In this document: positions 2,301-17,822 of the stretch, one piece after another
Numbering within the stretch: the stretch's first letter is position 1
Layout of the letters: each line of letters begins with the position of its first letter
DNA from: Pseudomonadota bacterium
GTDB lineage: Bacteria; Bdellovibrionota; UBA1018; CAIMNF01
Direction of reading: 5' to 3'
NCBI GenBank assembly: GCA_027482725.1
Contig: JAIXVT010000030.1
Coordinates: 1 to 24,114 of the forward strand
Length of the DNA stretch: 24,114 nucleotides
Program-made: the position numbers and the translations under genes
Notes under the pieces: generated by a model
What the model was told of the DNA's origin: nothing
The model's database searches: none
Seen by the model: only the letters and a program-made list of their open reading frames with translations

Positions 2301-2349
2301 GTGATTAAATTCTAGCCTATTCCGAGATCTGATTTTAGTCTTATCTCCT

Positions 2350-2832
2350 ATGATACTCCCTCTTCTCTTTGCAGTGCTTTTGTCATTGGCGCCATTCACC
2401 CAGACCCAAGCTCAGGCCGTTGCGCCCGTAACAGCAAGCCCTGCGCAAGCCGTTCTCCCGCAAAGTCTTTCTGATTTTGAAAAGCTGGCTAAGGCTAAAA
2501 TGAACGCGATCGTGGATCGAGAAAAGAAAGCCAAACAAGAGATTAAAAAGAAACAACAAGCAGACAAAAAATCTTGGGATGAGGGTGAAAAATCCAGAAG
2601 ACAACAGTTCTTTAAAGACAATTTGAGTGGACCGGATCGCCGTGCTTATGTTCAAGAATACAAAGCCCGTCAGGAGCGATTTGAAATCATGCAGGATGCC
2701 GAGAAAACGGCAACTCGTGAGTACTATGCCGAAGAAAAGTCTGAATTAAAGAAGAAGATCGAAGAAAAAAGGAAGTTAATTAAAAAAGCAATTCAGACCA
2801 AGTCGCCAATTACATCAGACATAGTGCCGTAG
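2350..2832 (+). CDS. Secreted hypothetical protein, highly charged and predicted helical/coiled-coil
   Basis: Hydrophobic N-terminal signal peptide (MILPLLFAVLLSLAPFTQTQA), then a K/E/Q-rich helical body. No family motif recognised. Confidence 0.75.
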   Translation: MILPLLFAVLLSLAPFTQTQAQAVAPVTASPAQAVLPQSLSDFEKLAKAKMNAIVDREKKAKQEIKKKQQADKKSWDEGEKSRRQQFFKDNLSGPDRRAYVQEYKARQERFEIMQDAEKTATREYYAEEKSELKKKIEEKRKLIKKAIQTKSPITSDIVP

Positions 2833-2833
2833 C

Positions 2834-3484
2834 TTAAAAGCCCCGACCTGTTCCCCATAAAATCTTGTGGAGTTGGTATTGAAAGCGAACAGGAGCTCGG
2901 CTTGCGACGATCCAATCTGCAAGGTGTGTCGGATTGACTTGGGGTACACTCGGCGAAAAATAAATGGGATTTTTGATTCCGGATGTTGTGAATTCTTGAA
3001 CTTGTTGGATTGCCCATTCAAAATCCGCATGGTCCGTAATGACAAATTTAATCTCATCCTGCGGTCGCAGGTGGGTTAAGTTTTCCTTGTATTTCCCGCG
3101 ACACATTCCCGATCCCGGAGTTTTTACATCCATAACCACGCGGCACTCTGGGGGCAACCCCTGGATAGAGATTTCTCCATGGGTTTCAATGCTCACGTGG
3201 AACCCCTCGTGGATTAATCGATCAATGAGAGGACGGGCCTGACGCTGGAGTAGGGGCTCGCCCCCCGTGACTAAAACATATTTTGTGGGCTGGGTCTTTG
3301 CTTCTAGAACAAGCTCATCAATGCTTCGACGTGACCCGCCTTTAAAGCTGTAGGTCGTATCGCAGTAAGTGCAACGCAAGTTACAACCCGTTAGACGAAT
3401 GAAAAAATAGGGTATCCCGACGTGGCTGGTTTCGCCTTGAAGGGAATAAAATGTTTCGGTGACCAATACGTCGTGAAATGCCAT
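2834..3484 (-). CDS. queE: 7-carboxy-7-deazaguanine synthase (radical SAM)
   Basis: ETFYSLQGE N-terminus, FIRLTGCNLRCTYCDT (CxxxCxxC), VTGGEPLLQ, D.KTPGSG and C-terminal QYQLHKILWG. Confidence 0.93.
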   Translation of the reverse strand: MAFHDVLVTETFYSLQGETSHVGIPYFFIRLTGCNLRCTYCDTTYSFKGGSRRSIDELVLEAKTQPTKYVLVTGGEPLLQRQARPLIDRLIHEGFHVSIETHGEISIQGLPPECRVVMDVKTPGSGMCRGKYKENLTHLRPQDEIKFVITDHADFEWAIQQVQEFTTSGIKNPIYFSPSVPQVNPTHLADWIVASRAPVRFQYQLHKILWGTGRGF

Positions 3485-3513
3485 GACTCTCTGAGTCTAA
3501 AGGGGTAACCGTG

Positions 3514-3542
3514 GTTCTACAACCGAGCTGAGTCTCAATCAA
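3514..3542 (-). promoter_or_regulatory. Possible weak sigma70-type promoter for queE (TTGATT-N17-TAGAAC)
   Basis: Minus-strand -35 at 3542-3537, 17-nt spacer, -10 at 3519-3514. The -7 position is C rather than the conserved T. Confidence 0.3.
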
Positions 3543-3582
3543 AAAAATAAAACTTCCCCTCGGTTTTTCAACCGAGGGGAAG
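3541..3582 (-). terminator. Intrinsic terminator downstream of the c-di-GMP riboswitch and upstream of queE
   Basis: Minus strand reads CTTCCCCTCGGTT-GAAA-AACCGAGGGGAAG-TTTTATTTTTTT: a perfect 13-bp stem, GNRA loop and long U tract. Confidence 0.92.
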
Positions 3583-3657
3583 AGGAATTGAAGAGGAGGT
3601 CCCTTTGGCTTGGGTTGGTTAGGGGGACCCCCTTTGAAGATTTGGAAGGCTCTTCCT

Positions 3658-3754
3658 CCTTTGGCAGACCAGCCAGCATCTCGGTCATAAATGACCGGGG
3701 AAGCTCTGTGACTTTGCGTGCCGGACTTTCGTCTCGGGTTGCCTTTTTCAAAGG
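3658..3754 (-). ncRNA. c-di-GMP-I (GEMM) riboswitch aptamer
   Basis: Minus strand reads CCTTTG-AAAAA-GGCAAC-CCGAGAC-GAAA-GTCCGG-CACGC-AAAGTCACAGAGC...GCTGGCTGGTCTGC-CAAAGG. It has a 6-bp P1 (CCTTTG/CAAAGG), a GAAA-capped arm and the ACGCAAAG core. Positions equivalent to Vibrio Vc2 G20 (3743), C44 (3718), A47 (3715), G83 (3673) and C92 (3664) are all present at the expected spacing. Confidence 0.9.
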
Positions 3755-3783
3755 GGGGTACGGTGACACCCTCTTCATAACTA

Positions 3784-3792
3784 AGAATATCA
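3784..3792 (-). promoter_or_regulatory. Extended -10 promoter element (TGaTATTCT) for the riboswitch-containing RNA
   Basis: Minus-strand TG-n-TATTCT about 30 nt upstream of aptamer P1. It implies a TSS near 3779-3776. Confidence 0.45.
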
Positions 3793-3857
3793 ACCCCTGG
3801 AAATGAACGAAATGTGTCTGCTCGGACTGGGTAAAATAAGGCAATATAGAACCCATC

Positions 3858-4976
3858 ATGTTGAACAGAGCTTGGACTATAGCTTTACTGATTATGCCCC
3901 TTTGGGGGGGCGTCTCATGGGTCAGTGAGGCTGAACCCCTAAGCGTTAAACTGAAAGAATTGAATAAAGCATTACCCAAGACTAACGCTCGTCAAGTCGT
4001 GATTTATCCACCTGCCGGTAATCTCAAGATCACGGGTTGGGCGCAAGAATCTGTGCAAATCAACAGTACTTTGGTTTACCCGCAGTCGAGCACAGAAAGC
4101 CCGGAGGTCGGATTATCGGTGCTTGAGCTTCCCGAAGCGGTGGAGATGCGTTGGGTTTTGCAACAAGGTATTGATCTGCTTTCAAAGATAAAACTGAAGC
4201 CCGAGATCGGTTCTGCTCACAACACGATAGAGATAAAAATGCCTTCCCATAAATCGTGCGTTGTTTACGGGGGGAGCCTATCTGGAAATGTTGTGATCGA
4301 GCGGCTCCATGCAGGAGTCGAAATCTTGGGAACGAAAAAATCAGTCCGCTTGTACCAGGTAAAATCTTCGCATACTGCCCGTGTGGTGACTCAAGACGGA
4401 AGCATTCAGGTGTTTTCATCTGAAACTCCGTTACATGCAGAAACAAAAAACGGAGGGATTGATCTTACTGATGTTAAATGTAAGGAGTGTACGCTCATTG
4501 CGCCGCAGGGAAAAATTGTCGCCGTTCATATCGATGGCACAGTCCGGATTTCAACACAGGTTTCTGATGTTGCCATTAGTAAAATGCGGGGTAGCCTTGA
4601 GGTGACCGCCGAGTCCGGTAAAGTGGGTGTTGTTGATTTGGATGGAGGATTCCAATTGGAAACCCAGCGAGCTTCGCTTGATCTTGCGTTGGTCAATGTG
4701 ACTCAAGATAGTTTTATCAAGGCCGATCATACGCAGGTTTCCCTCAAGCTCCCCACCCGTTTTTCAGGTCTGATTGATCTAGTGGGTACGATTAAACCGC
4801 CTGTCGTTTTGTTTCCTCACAAACGGATCGAATCTCGCCAAGGAACCGTGTACGGCCCAACCCCACCTGGAGATCGATTTATCGCAATCGGCGCAAAAGA
4901 AACTCCGCTGATTCGCATCATTCATCGGGGGGAAGTAACCCGTATTGACCGGAATACCGCAGAGGGCGGGTTATGA
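3858..4976 (+). CDS. Secreted DUF4097/adhesin-like beta-strand-repeat protein
   Basis: Signal peptide, an N-terminal 'GNLKITGWAQESVQI' segment, and repeated short beta motifs (T..G.I.., S..G.V.., L.T..G.I) typical of DUF4097-type beta-solenoids. Confidence 0.55.
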   Translation: MLNRAWTIALLIMPLWGGVSWVSEAEPLSVKLKELNKALPKTNARQVVIYPPAGNLKITGWAQESVQINSTLVYPQSSTESPEVGLSVLELPEAVEMRWVLQQGIDLLSKIKLKPEIGSAHNTIEIKMPSHKSCVVYGGSLSGNVVIERLHAGVEILGTKKSVRLYQVKSSHTARVVTQDGSIQVFSSETPLHAETKNGGIDLTDVKCKECTLIAPQGKIVAVHIDGTVRISTQVSDVAISKMRGSLEVTAESGKVGVVDLDGGFQLETQRASLDLALVNVTQDSFIKADHTQVSLKLPTRFSGLIDLVGTIKPPVVLFPHKRIESRQGTVYGPTPPGDRFIAIGAKETPLIRIIHRGEVTRIDRNTAEGGL

Positions 4977-9241: not shown

Positions 9242-9264
9242 TTTCTGAGCGATACCCTGAATCC

Positions 9265-11418
9265 ATGAAATCCTTCTCGGTAGAGCATAAAAGCGTCGGT
9301 GGAAAACAAATTGCAGTCGTCACTTTTGACCTTCCGGGTGAAAAGGTGAATAAATTTAATCGCGAAGTCATGGAGGATTTTCAGATCCTCCTCCATACGC
9401 TGCAAAAAGATACGTCCGATGTTGTGGTGATGATTTCTAAAAAATCAGGAATTTTTATTGCGGGTGCGGACATCAAATTAATCCAATCAGCGCAGACCGA
9501 AGCCGAAGCTTTTGAGCTTGCGCGTGCAGGTCAAAATTTACTCACCGCCTGGGAAACGCTGCCCATGCCAACCGTTGTCGCCATTCAGGGGGCGTGTATG
9601 GGAGGGGGCTGCGAACTTGCGCTGGCCAGCTCCGCTATCGTGATGAGCCAGGACGCGACAACCCGCATCGGGCTGCCAGAAACTCTTCTCGGAATTATTC
9701 CTGGAATGGGCGGATGTGTCCGCTTACCTTGGAAGGTGGGGATTGCGCAGGGCTTAGATCTGATTTTGACCGGAAAAACGCTTACCGCCGAAAAAGCCTA
9801 TAAAATCGGACTAGCCGAGGCTTCTCTTCCCGTCGAAAACTTCGTTCAAGAGGCACTGGTATGGGCATCGAACCATGCTGATCTGCTGAAGAAAAAAACA
9901 ATTCTTGCAAAAAAACCTGCGCTCGGGGGAACTGGAGGGTGGATCGGGTCGGTGCTGGAGTCAGGGTTGGCTCGATCCATGATTTTCTCAAAAGCAAAGT
10001 CTAGCGTTCTAGAAAAGACCAAGGGACATTATCCCGCACCCCTAGAGGCGATTGACGTGATTTCTGAAATCGGGACCTGCTACCAAGCGCGATTTTCGGG
10101 CCAAGAGTTACAAGAGGCGCTGGTCCGTGAGGCTCGCGGTTTTGCCAAGATGGCGATGACTCCTGTTTCAAAAAACCTCATCCGTTTGTTTTTTATGACC
10201 GAATCGGTAAAGGGAGCGTTTGAAAAAATGCCCGTTACCCGAGCAGGTGTCCTCGGGGCCGGAGTCATGGGGGGAGGCATTGCCCAACTCTTTGCCGATA
10301 AAAACGTTCCCGTGGTGATGAAGGATATTTCGCCGCAAGCTTTAGAAACAGGAATTCAGTCGGCGCTCGCATTGTTTAAAAAGTCGTTAAAAAAGCGGAA
10401 AATTAACGAACGTCAGTTTCAGCAAAAACTGAATCTTTTGACTCCAACCCTAGACGTCAAGCGCTTGGGCTCGGCTCAGGTTATCGTCGAGGCCGTTGTC
10501 GAAAAGCTAGAGGTTAAACAAGCTGTGCTGAGTGAAATCGAGAACGACGTCCCCGAAACTACCATCTTGGCCTCGAACACGTCTTCTCTTCCTATTACCA
10601 ACATTCAGTCTGCGCTTAAGCGCCCACAAAATTTTTGCGGAATGCATTTTTTCAATCCTGTTCACAAAATGCCACTGGTAGAAGTGATTCGCGGAGAGAA
10701 GTCTTCTGATCGGACCGTCACTCAGGTTTATCAATTAGCAAAACAACTCGGTAAAACGCCCGTCATCGTAAAGGATTCTCCCGGATTTTTGGTGAATCGT
10801 CTCTTGATGCCGTACTTGTCTGAGGCCGCAAGCCTCCTTACCGAAGGGGTGCCCATTCTAGAAATTGATCGCGCTCTTTTAAATTTTGGAATGCCCATGG
10901 GACCGATTGAACTTATTGATGAAGTGGGAATTGATGTCGGCCAAAAAGTGGCCGGAATTCTCAGAGAGGCCTTCGGTGACCGAATGAATGCGCCTCAGCT
11001 TTTTAACGGATTTATTGAAAAAAAACGTCTTGGGAAAAAAACAAGACATGGGTTTTATCGTTATGAAGGTCCAATAGACCGACTTCAGAAAAAGTTTGAT
11101 CCCGAGGTGTACTCGTTTTTGGGGGTTCAGCCCCGCCCTCAATCTGTCGCTCCGGATGTGATTTTGGATCGTTGTCTTTTGGTCATGATCAACGAAGCTG
11201 CGCGTTGTTTAGAGGAAGGCATCGTCCAATCTCCTGATGATGTCGATTTGGCGATGATCATGGGGACAGGATTTCCGCCGTTCCTAGGAGGACTGATGTC
11301 GTATGCCAAGCATCGTGGTTATGGAAGTTGTGTTCAGCGCCTCAAGGAACTGGCATCGCTTTACGGTTCCCGATTCGAGCCCTCATCGGCATTGATTCAG
11401 CTGAGTCAGGGAGTTTGA
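9265..11418 (+). CDS. fadJ: Fatty-acid oxidation complex alpha subunit (enoyl-CoA hydratase / 3-hydroxyacyl-CoA dehydrogenase), FadJ-like
   Basis: FIAGADI, GGGCELALA and GLPETLLGIIPG (both hydratase Glu), GVLGAGVMGGGIA, LASNTSSLPI, GMHFFNPVHKMPLVE and GTGFPPFLGG. Confidence 0.9.
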   Translation: MKSFSVEHKSVGGKQIAVVTFDLPGEKVNKFNREVMEDFQILLHTLQKDTSDVVVMISKKSGIFIAGADIKLIQSAQTEAEAFELARAGQNLLTAWETLPMPTVVAIQGACMGGGCELALASSAIVMSQDATTRIGLPETLLGIIPGMGGCVRLPWKVGIAQGLDLILTGKTLTAEKAYKIGLAEASLPVENFVQEALVWASNHADLLKKKTILAKKPALGGTGGWIGSVLESGLARSMIFSKAKSSVLEKTKGHYPAPLEAIDVISEIGTCYQARFSGQELQEALVREARGFAKMAMTPVSKNLIRLFFMTESVKGAFEKMPVTRAGVLGAGVMGGGIAQLFADKNVPVVMKDISPQALETGIQSALALFKKSLKKRKINERQFQQKLNLLTPTLDVKRLGSAQVIVEAVVEKLEVKQAVLSEIENDVPETTILASNTSSLPITNIQSALKRPQNFCGMHFFNPVHKMPLVEVIRGEKSSDRTVTQVYQLAKQLGKTPVIVKDSPGFLVNRLLMPYLSEAASLLTEGVPILEIDRALLNFGMPMGPIELIDEVGIDVGQKVAGILREAFGDRMNAPQLFNGFIEKKRLGKKTRHGFYRYEGPIDRLQKKFDPEVYSFLGVQPRPQSVAPDVILDRCLLVMINEAARCLEEGIVQSPDDVDLAMIMGTGFPPFLGGLMSYAKHRGYGSCVQRLKELASLYGSRFEPSSALIQLSQGV

Positions 11419-16662: not shown

Positions 16663-16716
16663 TCTTTCAGTTTAGCTCAACTTGACAACTAATAGTCCAA
16701 TGCTGAAAACCTAAAC

Positions 16717-17382
16717 ATGCCCTTTTTTAAGAAACGAACCCGTATCCTTTTTATTTTTACCCTCGCGCTGAGTCAAGCTTCTTTGGGGTTTGCTCAAGAG
16801 CTAAACACCGTTCATGTCGAGCGAAAAAAAGGGAGCAAAACGGTGCTTAATCAACATACCTCCGTGGATTTTTGGCGCCAAAAGTCAGCTCAAGAAGCAT
16901 TCCAAGAGGTTTTGAGCGCTATTGATTCCGCAGAACAGGCCGAAATTGATCTTGTGGTGGTCAAGGGGCGGGATGGGAGTCTGGCCCGGTTTCCACGACA
17001 CCTCATCACCAAAGGGCATGTAAAATTTACGACATGTGAGGGCAGAAGCGTTTGTTTAAAGGGGGTAACGAACCGGGCGCGTATTCCGGTAGAGGCGCTG
17101 GAAGTGAAACGAGTTCAGAAAATTGAACTCTTTAACCACAATGAGGTTTTCCCCGAGGCAAAACTGAAGGATCGGACCAACCCGGCCGCTTCACGTGGAG
17201 AAAAACTTTGGGTGCAAAACTGTTTGTCTTGCCATGGACTCAAGGCTCCCGAATTGCAGTTAAAAAATCTTAAACTCGTCGAGTCTGTGTTTAATCAAAC
17301 TCATCGAAAGTTCAGCGGATTTCGACTCGATTCTTGGGATGTTCGGGGCATTGCGGCTTATTTGGATGCGCTCAAACCGTAG
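16717..17382 (+). CDS. Periplasmic monoheme cytochrome c with an N-terminal SUOX/molybdopterin-oxidoreductase-like domain
   Basis: Signal peptide and a single CLSCH heme motif preceded by RGEKLW. The N-domain has V..KGRDG...FP and VKRVQKIEL, resembling small SUOX-fold domains (inference). Confidence 0.7.
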   Translation: MPFFKKRTRILFIFTLALSQASLGFAQELNTVHVERKKGSKTVLNQHTSVDFWRQKSAQEAFQEVLSAIDSAEQAEIDLVVVKGRDGSLARFPRHLITKGHVKFTTCEGRSVCLKGVTNRARIPVEALEVKRVQKIELFNHNEVFPEAKLKDRTNPAASRGEKLWVQNCLSCHGLKAPELQLKNLKLVESVFNQTHRKFSGFRLDSWDVRGIAAYLDALKP

Positions 17383-17402
17383 GTCGTTTAATTTAATACC
17401 TT

Positions 17403-17822
17403 ATGAACGTTTCCGGATTCCTTCCCGCACTCGAACTCGAGTGCGAAGTGGACTTTTTCGCATGGCACTCTTTACCGGATAATCCGGAGGTGCATCAGCA
17501 TCGATTTTTGCTGGCGGTCCGGATAAAGAAAAAACGCCAAGCGGGCCAAGACCGCCTGCTTCATCTCCCCGAATTTAAAAAAATATTAGAGTCGTGGATC
17601 ACCCCGCTTCAGGACCAAGTGCTTAATCAATGCCGAGCGCTGAGTGCATCGATACATGATCGGCCAACGCTGGAAAATCTGATGACTTACTTCTCGGAGT
17701 TGTGCTCGCAAAACGAACCCTTGGGAAGCTGTTGGGTACAAATTAGGCTTGAGCTTTACGAACCCACTGGGTACTTTTGGGGTCGAATTTTACTGAATCG
17801 TGAAAATGGGGGGCACACTTAA
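17403..17822 (+). CDS. 6-pyruvoyl-tetrahydropterin synthase / QueD superfamily (COG0720) protein, atypical active site
   Basis: F.A.H.L, HxH (HQH), LN, PTLENL and a terminal E follow the T-fold QueD layout. The catalytic Cys and the DH His are absent. Confidence 0.7.
   Translation: MNVSGFLPALELECEVDFFAWHSLPDNPEVHQHRFLLAVRIKKKRQAGQDRLLHLPEFKKILESWITPLQDQVLNQCRALSASIHDRPTLENLMTYFSELCSQNEPLGSCWVQIRLELYEPTGYFWGRILLNRENGGHT

What the first reader, a model, noticed from the sequence alone, without database searches (positions are those of the whole stretch)
3541..3778. Predicted ~230-nt self-contained riboswitch RNA: attenuator of queE or standalone merRNA-like c-di-GMP RNA
Seen in sequence: an extended -10 (3792-3784), the aptamer, about 75 nt of structured spacer with no start codon after the AGGAGG, and a perfect 13-bp terminator. 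The spacer contains a hairpin AGGGGGTCCC/GGGACCTCCT with a 20-nt A/C-rich loop and a tandem TCCTCTTC repeat (3597-3590 and 3586-3579). The strand AGGAGGAAGAG (3660-3650) overlaps the P1 3' strand. It can pair with the second repeat copy (CTCTTCCCCT, 3584-3575), invading the terminator 5' arm, or with the first copy as a decoy. That is the logic of a ligand-OFF attenuator. Established: Bdellovibrio bacteriovorus expresses a standalone c-di-GMP-riboswitch RNA (merRNA) in attack phase. Inference: this locus is either a merRNA-like c-di-GMP sink or store, or a switch. The very strong terminator favours near-constitutive termination.
Basis: partly seen in the sequence, partly recalled or inferred. 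Interest (0 to 1): 0.8.

Follow-up and report, generated by a model that had tools for sequence, protein, structure and literature searches.

The report
Orphan c-di-GMP-sensing RNA beside queE
This is a real, about 240-nucleotide RNA that carries a c-di-GMP sensor and its own terminator, and comparison with relatives indicates it is a stand-alone two-state RNA related in design to Bdellovibrio's merRNA, not a switch for the neighbouring queE gene.

Summary
A c-di-GMP-I aptamer (RF01051, 49.8 bits) lies at 3753-3660 (-). A perfect 13-bp terminator with a U run lies at 3582-3541.

Comparison with 55 relatives from 11 families of an uncultured Bdellovibrionota order changes the anatomy:
- A conserved 5' strand UGAAGAGG pairs with CCUCUUCA just before the terminator.
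- UUCAAAGGGGG is a 12-bp 'decoy' complement of the P1 5' strand, so the RNA has two states.
- The terminator is untouched in both states in 55 of 55 RNAs.

queE appears to have its own promoter. A TGnTA motif sits 12-18 nt before the start codon in about 80% of loci, which suggests a leaderless mRNA. Four genomes have no queE at the locus, and three of them have no queE found anywhere. All four keep the RNA intact, now directly upstream of tRNA-Cys.

Genomes with the aptamer carry one copy in nearly every case. In B. bacteriovorus HD100 that copy is merRNA, which shows the same order of complementary boxes.

Verdict: a stand-alone, merRNA-like bistable c-di-GMP RNA (about 0.6), not a queE attenuator (about 0.2).

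The parts
3784..3792 (-). Extended -10-like element TGATATTCT. The putative promoter of the RNA; the start site would fall near 3778-3776.
   Evidence: Read directly from the sequence. Not tested. In relatives, the corresponding position upstream of UGAAGAGG carries an extra 5' hairpin that this window lacks.
3770..3777 (-). S1: the 5' strand UGAAGAGG of the long-range closing helix P0.
   Evidence: More than 90% conserved in 55 relatives. RNAalifold pairs it with CCUCUUC. 98.4% of cells pair, against 64-77% when the partner is slid by 1-3 columns. One column pair shows a GC-to-AU double change in 3 sequences. Pair probability in the window RNA is 0.98-1.0.
3747..3757 (-). S3: CCCCCUUUGAA, the 5' strand of aptamer stem P1 plus its extension. 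It has two alternative partners, S4 and S6.
   Evidence: Column counts; duplex energies (-11.2 kcal/mol with S4, -19.0 with S6).
3660..3753 (-). c-di-GMP-I (GEMM-I) aptamer.
   Evidence: RF01051: 49.8 bits, gathering score 35, full-length match 1-87. It has ACGCAAAG where the GGC-variant consensus has ACGCGAAG. RF03167 scores 48.6, below its gathering score of 59.
3655..3663 (-). S4: CAAAGGAGG, the 3' strand of P1. It is Shine-Dalgarno-like, but no start codon follows.
   Evidence: P1 has a 6-bp core, then a conserved mismatch, then 2 bp.
3628..3638 (-). S6: UUCAAAGGGGG, the 'decoy' P1 3' strand (anti-P1). It overlaps the 5' arm of the spacer hairpin (3633-3624).
   Evidence: Its 12-bp complementarity to S3 is kept in 94.1% of cells over 55 sequences. 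It forms in the single-sequence minimum-energy fold of about 40 of 55 RNAs. In the window RNA the pair probability is 0.75-0.99 while P1 is 0.0.
3594..3633 (-). Spacer hairpin AGGGGGUCCC / GGGACCUCCU with a 20-nt loop (S6:S8a). It is predicted to form when P1 is closed.
   Evidence: Duplex energy -19.8 kcal/mol. It forms in 52 of 55 folds with P1 enforced, against 27 of 55 free folds. Relatives keep the helix with different sequences: GGGAUUU/AAAUCCC, GGAGGCG/CGCCUCC, GGGGUUG/CAACCCC.
3589..3596 (-). S8b: CCUCUUCA, the 3' strand of closing helix P0. This is the first copy of the repeat.
   Evidence: UCUUC is invariant in 55 of 55 sequences. Pairing statistics.
3579..3586 (-). Second TCCTCTTC copy, overlapping the terminator 5' arm. 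It is specific to this lineage.
   Evidence: Present in the window but not in relatives. It can pair with S1 (-11.5 kcal/mol) or with AGGAGGAAGAG (-13.9 kcal/mol).
3541..3582 (-). Intrinsic terminator: a 13-bp stem, a GAAA loop and the run UUUUAUUUUUUU.
   Evidence: Hairpin energy -24.5 kcal/mol and mid-stem pair probability 1.0. The equivalent hairpin varies in sequence, shows many compensatory pairs, and is intact in both states in 55 of 55 RNAs.
3494..3522 (-). Putative promoter of queE itself: TTGTAG (3522-3517), a 17-nt spacer, then TAGACT (3499-3494), ending 9 nt before the ATG. This implies a leaderless or near-leaderless mRNA.
   Evidence: Read from the sequence. A TA dinucleotide starts at -12 to -15 from the start codon 44 times across 54 related loci, and TG at -15 to -18 42 times, against about 0-5 per position elsewhere. 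queE has no Shine-Dalgarno sequence. Other first genes in the window show the same pattern.
2834..3484 (-). queE, 7-carboxy-7-deazaguanine synthase (radical SAM). A neighbour of the RNA, not part of it.
   Evidence: TIGR04349: 257.7 bits, E = 7.9e-77, full length. Pfam Radical_SAM.

Best explanation
The locus encodes a stand-alone, non-coding RNA of about 240 nt (roughly 3778 to 3541, minus strand). It is built around a canonical c-di-GMP-I aptamer and ends at its own strong intrinsic terminator.

The RNA has two states.
- Without ligand, the P1 5' strand (CCCCCUUUGAA) pairs with a downstream decoy strand (UUCAAAGGGGG). The 5' end (UGAAGAGGG) pairs with the whole pyrimidine box (GGGACCUCCUCUUCA), which closes the molecule.
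- With c-di-GMP bound, P1 forms and the decoy is released. The decoy then folds with the pyrimidine box into the spacer hairpin, and the closing helix is weakened or opened.

The terminator is unaffected in either state. The output is therefore not read-through into queE. It is the conformation of the RNA itself, and with it the RNA's affinity for c-di-GMP and how readily it releases it.

Inferred: the competing helix costs about 3-5 kcal/mol. That would lower the very tight intrinsic affinity of the aptamer into a physiological range and give a route for ligand release. This is what a buffer or reservoir of the kind proposed for Bdellovibrio merRNA would need. Exposure of the 5' purine strand, or of the Shine-Dalgarno-like strand, could instead serve decay control or action on other RNAs.

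queE, 57 nt downstream of the U run, is transcribed from its own promoter as a leaderless mRNA.

Shown here: the aptamer, the terminator, conservation of the helices and the alternative pairing, the promoter signal at queE, retention of the RNA where queE is missing, and the same box order in merRNA. Inferred: the transcript ends, ligand binding, the buffering role, and abundance.
For: (1) Aptamer: RF01051, 49.8 bits against a gathering score of 35. It carries the canonical A where the GGC variant has G. The genome has at least 2 GGDEF and at least 5 PilZ proteins.

(2) Distribution. 94 of 127 genomes of the class have the aptamer, and all but one of those have exactly one copy. 60 of 60 genomes of family f17 have one copy. 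The genome G169 has a contig of 3,782,950 bp and its hit at 1073868-1073951 (-) lies inside the published merRNA interval 1,073,741-1,074,185 (PMC3627812).

(3) Conserved architecture in 55 RNAs from 11 families. P0 pairs in 98.4% of cells and the decoy helix in 94.1% over 12 bp. About 40 of 55 single-sequence minimum-energy folds adopt P0 plus the decoy helix.

(4) Enforcing P1 costs a median of +4.6 kcal/mol (window: +3.3 to +5.2). It switches the pyrimidine box from the 5' leader (45 of 55 down to 13 of 55) to the local hairpin (27 of 55 up to 52 of 55). The terminator is intact in 55 of 55 in both states.

(5) queE has its own promoter signal at a fixed distance from the start codon and has no Shine-Dalgarno sequence.

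(6) The ancestral gene order is RNA, queE, tRNA-Cys. In four genomes from four families the RNA is directly followed by tRNA-Cys with all its boxes intact. In three of these (92-95% complete) no QueE is found by protein or HMM search. The fourth has only a distant partial radical-SAM match elsewhere.

(7) merRNA shows the same order of complementary boxes: a closing helix (95.6% of cells paired) and a downstream GGAAGGA strand complementary to the stretch just 5' of, and 2 nt into, the P1 5' strand, with a compensatory C:G-to-A:U change.

(8) No coding signature in the spacer. Spacer lengths fall in all three frames, 10/28/11.
Against: - queE lies directly downstream on the same strand in 45 of 55 loci, and within 1.4 kb in 50 of 55. 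This is the classic layout of a riboswitch leader.
- In family f4 the U run after the hairpin is short (for example CACCAUUUG), so some read-through is likely.
- The promoter call rests on a positional motif, and many of the hexamers lack the usual final T.
- P0 and the decoy helix are almost invariant, so true covariation is sparse. The support is conservation of complementarity.
- Folding energies are nearest-neighbour predictions. They ignore tertiary contacts and co-transcriptional kinetics.
- Outside the aptamer no sequence motifs shared with merRNA were seen, and this was judged by eye, not by a dedicated similarity search.
- No expression data could be obtained. Abundance, transcript ends and any ligand effect are untested.
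Confidence: 0.6

Rival explanations
1. Cis-acting transcription attenuator. The RNA is the 5' leader of queE, and c-di-GMP controls how much transcription passes the terminator. In this window, when ligand-bound P1 frees the decoy strand and the spacer hairpin covers the first CCUCUUC copy, either the 5' strand UGAAGAGG or the strand AGGAGGAAGAG could pair with the second copy and open the bottom 4 bp of the terminator.
For: - Tandem, same-strand arrangement with queE in 45 of 55 loci, with only about 25-60 nt between the hairpin and the start codon.
- In four of the five loci with an inserted gene, that ORF lies on the same strand with queE after it, which resembles an operon. In the fifth (L025) the intervening ORF is on the opposite strand.
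- The window has a second CCUCUUC copy inside the terminator 5' arm. It is complementary to S1 (-11.5 kcal/mol) and to AGGAGGAAGAG (-13.9 kcal/mol).
- Weak U runs in family f4.
Against: - The second copy is absent from relatives. No complementarity between any aptamer-linked strand and the terminator arms is conserved.
- The terminator is predicted intact with and without P1 in 55 of 55 RNAs. In the window its pair probability is 1.0.
- queE has no Shine-Dalgarno sequence and has a promoter-like TGnTA at a fixed distance from the start codon, so read-through transcripts would be poorly translated.
- The RNA is retained intact in four genomes where queE is gone from the locus, three of which have no detectable queE anywhere.
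- None of 79 close QueE loci in other phyla and lineages has a GEMM-like motif upstream.
Confidence: 0.2
2. Dual role. The RNA is an abundant stand-alone RNA, and constitutive (unregulated) leakage through its terminator, or interference from its strong promoter, also sets the expression level of queE and tRNA-Cys downstream.
For: - The deeply conserved order RNA, queE, tRNA-Cys, all on one strand.
- Variable terminator quality between families.
- The merRNA promoter is the strongest native promoter tested in B. bacteriovorus (bioRxiv 10.1101/2025.05.17.654431, read).
Against: There is no direct evidence of read-through. The own-promoter signals in front of queE, and TAnnnT elements in front of tRNA-Cys where queE is lost (sequences), make read-through unnecessary.
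Confidence: 0.12
3. A composite preQ1 and c-di-GMP riboswitch. A preQ1-I-like pseudoknot at 3773-3741 would overlap the aptamer and link the element functionally to queE.
For: - queE is a typical preQ1-regulated gene (established knowledge).
- The stretch AGAGG...CCCCCU UUGAAAAA loosely resembles the layout of preQ1-I.
Against: - No PreQ1 family match, even at E <= 10, in a 321-nt search or a 701-nt search.
- In relatives the 'loop' is a variable-sequence hairpin, for example GGUCACA../..UGUGACC and GAUCAUUA/UAAUGAUC.
- The A-rich tail belongs to the c-di-GMP-I consensus.
- AGAGG is accounted for by the P0 pairing.
Confidence: 0.02

Closest known systems
merRNA (massively expressed riboswitch RNA) of Bdellovibrio bacteriovorus HD100 (Karunker et al. 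2013, PMC3627812)
   Same: - Same phylum.
- It is the only c-di-GMP-I aptamer in the genome.
- A structured tail of about 120 nt after the aptamer ends in a strong terminator: 127 nt in HD100, about 119 nt here.
- The order of complementary boxes is the same: a 5' purine box, a hairpin, the pyrimidine P1 5' strand, the aptamer, the P1 3' strand, a hairpin, a second purine strand complementary to the P1 5' region, then a pyrimidine box complementary to the 5' purine box, then the terminator.
   Different: - No shared sequence motifs were seen outside the aptamer. Here the boxes are UGAAGAGG / UUCAAAGGGGG / CCUCUUCA; in merRNA they are AAGGAGG / AUGGAAGGA / UUCAUUCCCCUUA.
- merRNA has a 234-nt 5' extension; this RNA has about 25 nt.
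- The gene downstream of merRNA is convergent. Here queE follows on the same strand.
- In merRNA the second purine strand overlaps P1 by only 2 nt. Here it covers all of it.
- merRNA carries an in-frame AUG-to-stop mini-frame. This RNA does not.
- Expression level here is unknown.
Canonical c-di-GMP-I (GEMM-I, RF01051) riboswitches with terminator expression platforms, such as Vc2 of Vibrio cholerae or the Clostridioides difficile flgB leader (own knowledge)
   Same: - The aptamer fold and the conserved core sequences: GGCAA, GAAA tetraloop, ACGCAAAG, UGCC.
- P1 competes with an alternative helix.
- A terminator lies downstream.
   Different: - The alternative helix does not involve the terminator.
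- The terminator appears constitutive.
- The downstream gene seems to have its own promoter, and the RNA persists without the gene.
Riboswitch-containing RNAs that act apart from a downstream ORF: Listeria SreA/SreB (SAM riboswitch RNAs acting on other transcripts) and the B12-riboswitch-controlled non-coding RNAs EutX/Rli55 (own knowledge; cited as background in PMC3627812)
   Same: A ligand-sensing aptamer within a terminated small transcript whose function is not control of a downstream ORF.
   Different: - Those RNAs also, or mainly, arise from genuine cis-regulatory leaders, or they control a sequestering non-coding RNA.
- No trans target or partner is known here.
- The ligand differs.
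c-di-GMP-I-GGC variant (RF03167)
   Same: Several relatives pass its gathering score (69-76 bits against 59). The window scores 48.6. The peripheral sequence is very similar.
   Different: All 55 RNAs have ACGCAAA, not the variant's ACGCGAA. RF01051 bit scores are higher for the same sequences. These RNAs are therefore the canonical type.

Membership tests
c-di-GMP-I riboswitch aptamer (RF01051) | Covariance-model score at or above the curated gathering score, over the full model. | tested here: met
   49.8 bits against 35; model positions 1-87 of 87. It is the lowest score among the 94 class members.
c-di-GMP-I riboswitch aptamer (RF01051) | Conserved core sequence blocks that hold the ligand-contacting nucleotides (GGCAA, ACGCAAAG, UGCC) and a GNRA tetraloop on P2. 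| tested here: met
   All blocks match the consensus in the alignment and are invariant in 55 relatives. The P2 loop is GAAA.
c-di-GMP-I riboswitch aptamer (RF01051) | A tetraloop receptor in P3 (CUAAG...UAUG). | tested here: inconclusive
   The window has CUUCC...GAUG in place of the consensus. Many f4 relatives share CUUCG/CAUG, and most f1 relatives keep CUAAG/UAUG.
c-di-GMP-I riboswitch aptamer (RF01051) | Binds c-di-GMP. | not testable with these tools
   Needs in-line probing or ITC.
merRNA-type orphan riboswitch RNA | Contains the genome's c-di-GMP-I aptamer inside a discrete transcript that ends at its own terminator. | tested here: met
   One RF01051 hit in the genome (75% complete). 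The terminator lies 78 nt after the aptamer. The transcript ends themselves are predicted, not observed.
merRNA-type orphan riboswitch RNA | No downstream ORF under its control. | tested here: inconclusive
   queE follows on the same strand. However, it has its own promoter signal and no Shine-Dalgarno sequence, and the RNA survives loss of queE from the locus in four genomes. In Bdellovibrionaceae the next gene is convergent.
merRNA-type orphan riboswitch RNA | Sequence homology to HD100 merRNA outside the aptamer. | tested here: not met
   The conserved merRNA boxes (AUGGAAGG, UUCAUUCCCCUUA) are absent from the window RNA, and the window's boxes are absent from the HD100 flanks. This was judged by inspecting the sequences and the two separate family alignments. 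No dedicated similarity search was run. Only the order of complementary boxes is shared.
merRNA-type orphan riboswitch RNA | Massive, attack-phase-specific expression. | not testable with these tools
The organism is an uncultured MAG.
Transcription-attenuating riboswitch of queE | Mutually exclusive terminator and antiterminator linked to the aptamer, conserved among relatives. | tested here: not met
   The terminator is intact with and without P1 in 55 of 55 RNAs. The terminator arms vary freely, with no conserved complement in the aptamer-linked strands.
Transcription-attenuating riboswitch of queE | The regulated gene depends on the leader's promoter. | tested here: not met
   TGnTA is enriched at -18 to -12 from the start codon across 54 loci, about 80% of them. 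In the window: TTGTAG-17 nt-TAGACT-9 nt-ATG. This is motif evidence only.
preQ1-I riboswitch (RF00522) | A covariance-model match. | tested here: not met
   No match at E <= 10 in either the 321-nt or the 701-nt search.

The most novel reading that the evidence does not exclude
Bdellovibrionota carry a phylum-wide, single-copy family of orphan c-di-GMP RNAs, of which merRNA is one branch. The defining feature is not gene control. It is a built-in 'decoy P1 strand' plus a closing helix, which make the RNA a two-state c-di-GMP buffer or transducer. The competing helix tunes affinity and drives ligand release, and ligand binding unzips the 5'/3' closing helix to expose a conserved purine strand. 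That would give the first mechanistic handle on what merRNA-type RNAs do.
Probability: 0.4. Interest if true: 0.75.

Novelty: new variant of a known kind. Interest (0 to 1): 0.58.

Why it matters
merRNA is the most abundant non-ribosomal transcript of attack-phase Bdellovibrio. Its function has stayed speculative since 2013, and its authors then found no conservation outside the Bdellovibrio lineage.

This locus shows that an RNA of the same design exists in a deeply branching, uncultured class of the same phylum. It occurs once per genome in all but one of the genomes that have it. It is under strong purifying selection and is kept even where its neighbour gene is lost.

Comparing the two branches isolates what is common to them: the aptamer, a decoy P1 strand, a 5'/3' closing helix and a constitutive terminator. 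That turns the 'c-di-GMP sponge' idea into concrete, testable predictions:
- an affinity shift between the aptamer alone and the full-length RNA;
- ligand-dependent opening of the closing helix.

It is also a caution for annotation. A riboswitch directly upstream of a gene on the same strand is not necessarily that gene's regulator.

Tried and rejected
Expression and transcript ends are untested.
- preQ1 link to queE: no PreQ1 model hit at E <= 10, and the region is a variable hairpin in relatives. Rejected.
- Coding explanation: long ORFs overlap the RNA on both strands (3539-3979 minus, 3588-3806 plus). They are treated as spurious because the spacer varies in length in all three frames and conservation follows RNA pairing.
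- General link between c-di-GMP and queE: none of the 79 best QueE loci outside this order carries a GEMM-like motif. A literature search for 'c-di-GMP riboswitch' with 'queE' gave nothing relevant.
- Conserved antiterminators: I looked for complementarity of S1, S4 or S8b to the terminator arms. There are some lineage-specific matches: the window's second repeat copy, and CCUCUCC in some f4 3' arms. Nothing is conserved.
- CsrA-sponge idea (GGA motifs in loops): considered from the sequences. The GGA count is not above expectation in the window RNA. It was not pursued.
- GGC-variant membership: rejected on the ACGCAAA column. The meaning of 'GGC' rests on my own recollection, because the defining paper was not found in the library.
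- The count of structure pairs was not used, to avoid pasting long dot-bracket strings. Equivalent counts were computed in Python.
- No covariance model of the full RNA was built, because at about 300 positions it exceeds the calibration limit.
Full report

Yes.
- Rfam's c-di-GMP-I model matches 3753-3660 over its full length, at 49.8 bits against a gathering score of 35.
- A 13-bp perfect stem with a GAAA loop at 3582-3553 is followed by UUUUAUUUUUUU to 3541. The hairpin folds at -24.5 kcal/mol.
- The spacer hairpin is AGGGGGUCCC (3633-3624) / GGGACCUCCU (3603-3594), with a 20-nt A/C-rich loop.
- The two TCCTCTTC copies are at 3597-3590 and 3586-3579.
- AGGAGGAAGAG is at 3660-3650.
- The extended -10-like TGATATTCT is at 3792-3784.

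No ATG or GTG follows the AGGAGG. The gene 57 nt beyond the U run is QueE (TIGR04349, 257.7 bits, full length).

The aptamer is the canonical type. It has ACGCAAAG where the 'GGC' variant consensus has ACGCGAAG. RF03167 stays below its own threshold here.

The genome makes and reads c-di-GMP: it has at least 2 GGDEF and at least 5 PilZ proteins.

**2. Where does the window come from, and how common is the element?**

The window lies in a 1.73-Mb metagenome-assembled genome that is 75% complete. It holds a single RF01051 hit.
- In its class, which consists only of such genomes, 94 of 127 species have the aptamer. All but one of those have exactly one copy.
- Across the phylum, one family has it in 60 of 60 genomes, again once each. 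Another family lacks it in 57 of 57.
- One of the single-copy genomes has a contig of 3,782,950 bp. Its hit at 1,073,868-1,073,951 (-) falls inside the published merRNA interval 1,073,741-1,074,185 of B. bacteriovorus HD100 (PMC3627812).

The phylum is therefore Bdellovibrionota, and the phylum's lone c-di-GMP-I aptamer is, in Bdellovibrio, merRNA.

**3. Anatomy from 55 relatives in 11 families**

From 5' to 3' the RNA has:
- a 5' hairpin, which this window lacks;
- UGAAGAGG (S1);
- a hairpin of variable sequence;
- CCCCCUUUGAA (S3, the P1 5' strand);
- the aptamer;
- CAAAGGAGG (S4, the P1 3' strand);
- a variable hairpin;
- UUCAAAGGGGGGUCC (S6);
- a variable loop;
- GGACCCCCUCUUCA (S8);
- a hairpin of variable sequence followed by a U run.

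RNAalifold on its own predicts the long-range helix S1:S8b, here called P0. P0 pairs in 98.4% of cells, against 64-77% when the partner is slid by 1-3 columns. One column pair has a GC-to-AU double change.

S6 is a 12-nt complement of S3 in 94.1% of cells. P1 itself has only a 6-bp core.

The S6:S8a hairpin is kept with quite different sequences in several lineages: GGGAUUU/AAAUCCC, GGAGGCG/CGCCUCC and GGGGUUG/CAACCCC. It is therefore a true helix.

The terminator stems vary freely and show many compensatory pairs.

Only the first TCCTCTTC copy of the window is conserved. The second copy is private to this lineage.

**4. Two states, one terminator**

About 40 of 55 single-sequence minimum-energy folds adopt P0 plus S3:S6, with P1 open. 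In the window RNA these pairs have probability 0.75-1.0, and P1 has 0.0.

Forcing P1, as bound ligand would, has these effects:
- It costs +3.3 to +5.2 kcal/mol in the window. The median over 55 RNAs is +4.6, with a range of 0.1-11.0.
- It moves S8 from the 5' leader (45 of 55 down to 13 of 55) into the local S6:S8a hairpin (27 of 55 up to 52 of 55).
- It leaves the terminator intact in 55 of 55.

The RNA is therefore a genuine switch, but the switch is not wired to the terminator.

It scores -13.9 kcal/mol against -24.5 for the terminator. It has no counterpart in relatives.

**5. Is queE controlled by it?**

Four lines of evidence argue against.

(a) queE has no Shine-Dalgarno sequence. Across 54 loci a TA dinucleotide starts at -12 to -15 from the start codon 44 times, and TG at -15 to -18 42 times. 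Other positions show about 0-5 each. This is the signature of an extended -10 promoter giving a leaderless mRNA. In the window it reads TTGTAG (3522-3517), a 17-nt spacer, TAGACT (3499-3494), 9 nt, then ATG. Other first genes in the window look the same, while internal operon genes have Shine-Dalgarno sequences.

(b) The ancestral gene order is RNA, queE, tRNA-Cys on one strand. In four genomes of four families queE is gone from the locus, and the RNA, with every box intact, sits directly before tRNA-Cys. In three of these, at 92-95% completeness, no QueE is found by protein or HMM search. The fourth has only a distant partial radical-SAM match about 50 kb away on the same contig.

(c) None of the 79 closest QueE loci from other lineages has a GEMM-like motif upstream.

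(d) In Bdellovibrionaceae, and in three of the four loci sampled from other families of the phylum, the gene after the RNA is convergent.

Against this stands the layout itself. queE follows directly in 45 of 55 loci, and within 1.4 kb in 50 of 55. The U runs in family f4 are short, so some read-through is plausible.

**6. Relation to merRNA**

An alignment of 26 Bdellovibrionaceae loci shows their own invariant boxes:
- AAGGAGG;
- UCCUUCCUUUG (the P1 5' strand);
- GCCAAAGG;
- AUGGAAGGA;
- UUCAUUCCCCUUA, followed by a terminator.

AAGGAGG can pair with CCCCUUA just before the terminator (95.6% of cells). GGAAGGA pairs with UCCUUCC, the stretch just 5' of and 2 nt into P1, and shows a C:G-to-A:U compensatory change.

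So the order of complementary elements is the same as here, while the sequences are not. I read this as the same design and probably common descent. By sequence, however, the window RNA is not a member of the merRNA family as originally defined.

**7. How it most likely works**

Shown: an aptamer embedded in a closed, two-state fold with a constitutive terminator. The neighbouring gene looks independent on motif evidence, which has not been confirmed by transcript mapping.

Inferred:
- The RNA is released as a discrete molecule of about 240 nt.
- c-di-GMP binding must pay about 3-5 kcal/mol to displace the decoy strand. This lowers apparent affinity by two to three orders of magnitude from that of a bare GEMM-I aptamer, and offers a strand-displacement route for release. 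Both are properties a buffer or reservoir needs (the merRNA hypothesis of PMC3627812).
- Alternatively, or in addition, the ligand-dependent opening of P0 exposes the 5' purine strand. In this window that strand is the very 5' end, which could couple ligand state to decay or to pairing with other RNAs.

I put the models at about 0.6 for stand-alone, 0.2 for a true attenuator, about 0.12 for a dual role through unregulated read-through or interference, and 0.02 for a preQ1 composite.

**8. Limits**

- The helices are nearly invariant, so the covariation statistics are weak.
- The related genomes are not independent samples.
- Promoter and leaderless calls rest on motifs.
- Energies are nearest-neighbour predictions.

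**9. Earlier notes of this scan**

- Note e1-5289716 (aptamer under spurious ORFs, facing queE) agrees with the findings here.
- Note e1-5289717 (preQ1-I-like pseudoknot at 3741-3773) was tested and is not supported (relatives).

**10. Verdict**

This is a real and strongly conserved RNA. It is a new variant of the merRNA kind of orphan riboswitch RNA, and the queE-attenuator reading is unlikely.

Interest is moderate to high for riboswitch and Bdellovibrio specialists, for two reasons. It extends merRNA-type RNAs across the phylum, and it exposes a shared two-state design that can be tested.

Noticed in passing
L112:3289-3333 (-) (B. bacteriovorus HD100, about 1,073,788-1,073,832) and 25 other Bdellovibrionaceae loci (L113-L114, L119-L121, L164-L183): Inside merRNA, the AUG of the invariant AUGGAAGG is in frame with the UAG/UAA of CCCCUUAG in 21 of 26 species. 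It would give MEG...(M/K/T)DWFHSP*, 14-22 aa. The spacer lengths 31, 34, 37, 40, 43 and 55 nt are all 1 mod 3. A GAGGUG-like Shine-Dalgarno sequence lies 5-8 nt upstream. The conserved parts show no synonymous variation, so RNA-level constraint is also at work. The 2013 paper reported no conserved ORF.
   Followed up: partly
L127, L131, L141, L124, L134, L138, L158, L160, L024, L027, L030, L018 (RNA, queE, tRNA-Cys); L008, L140, L153, L154 (RNA, tRNA-Cys): The order-wide gene order is c-di-GMP RNA, queE, tRNA-Cys(GCA), all on one strand. queE has been lost from this locus in four families. In three of those genomes no QueE is detectable anywhere.
   Followed up: yes
window 3845-3860 (+), 2330-2352 (+), 9245-9267 (+), 16683-16719 (+), 17385-17405 (+): First genes of operons in this window lack a Shine-Dalgarno sequence and have a TAnnnn element 5-9 nt before the ATG. 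An example is TATAGA-ACCCATC-ATG at the DUF4097 gene. Internal operon genes do have Shine-Dalgarno sequences. Leaderless mRNAs appear common in this lineage.
   Followed up: partly
A1 columns 175-181 (P3 loop of the aptamer in relatives); absent at window 3695-3681: The P3 loop of nearly all relatives carries ACCCC(G), which mimics the S8a strand. It changes together with the G-run strand S6: AUCCCC goes with GGGAU in L016 and similar sequences. This suggests a pseudoknot between the P3 loop and S6. The window's P3 loop (AUUUAU) lacks it. The window also lacks the 5' hairpin and has the lowest aptamer score of the class.
   Followed up: partly
L020, L148-L152, L155-L157 (families f2 and f8): These families carry an expanded version of the RNA, with about 250-350 nt between the aptamer and queE. 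It has extra conserved blocks (CCCCCCUCAC...GGGUGG, UUCAAGGGGAAUU...GUCCCCCCAC) before CGUUCUUCA and the terminator.
   Followed up: no
L142-L147 (sister order, family f13): Here the aptamer has different flanks, and no queE is nearby. About 110-130 nt downstream there is a strong Shine-Dalgarno sequence plus an ATG that opens only 2-10 codons.
   Followed up: no
Family f4 hits listed (for example G071:C195:537, G052:C135:348, G105:C2:402, G110:C104:1639): In at least 17 MAGs the aptamer lies either 350-540 nt or about 1,580-1,730 nt from a contig start, always reading away from that end. Something upstream repeatedly breaks assemblies. No rRNA or tRNA fragment was seen at the contig starts of the five such loci that were scanned from base 1 or 50 of the contig.
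   Followed up: partly
window 3535-3528 and 3498-3491 (-): The direct repeat AGACUCAG occurs twice between the terminator and queE. The second copy overlaps the putative -10 element TAGACT. GACUC at 3497-3493 can also pair with GAGUC at 3489-3485, just before the ATG.
   Followed up: no
L122, L125, L127-L129, L132, L133, L139: Rfam's clan competition reports these canonical aptamers (ACGCAAA) as c-di-GMP-I-GGC (RF03167, 69-76 bits against a gathering score of 59), although RF01051 gives higher bit scores for the same sequences. This is a possible source of mis-annotation.
   Followed up: partly
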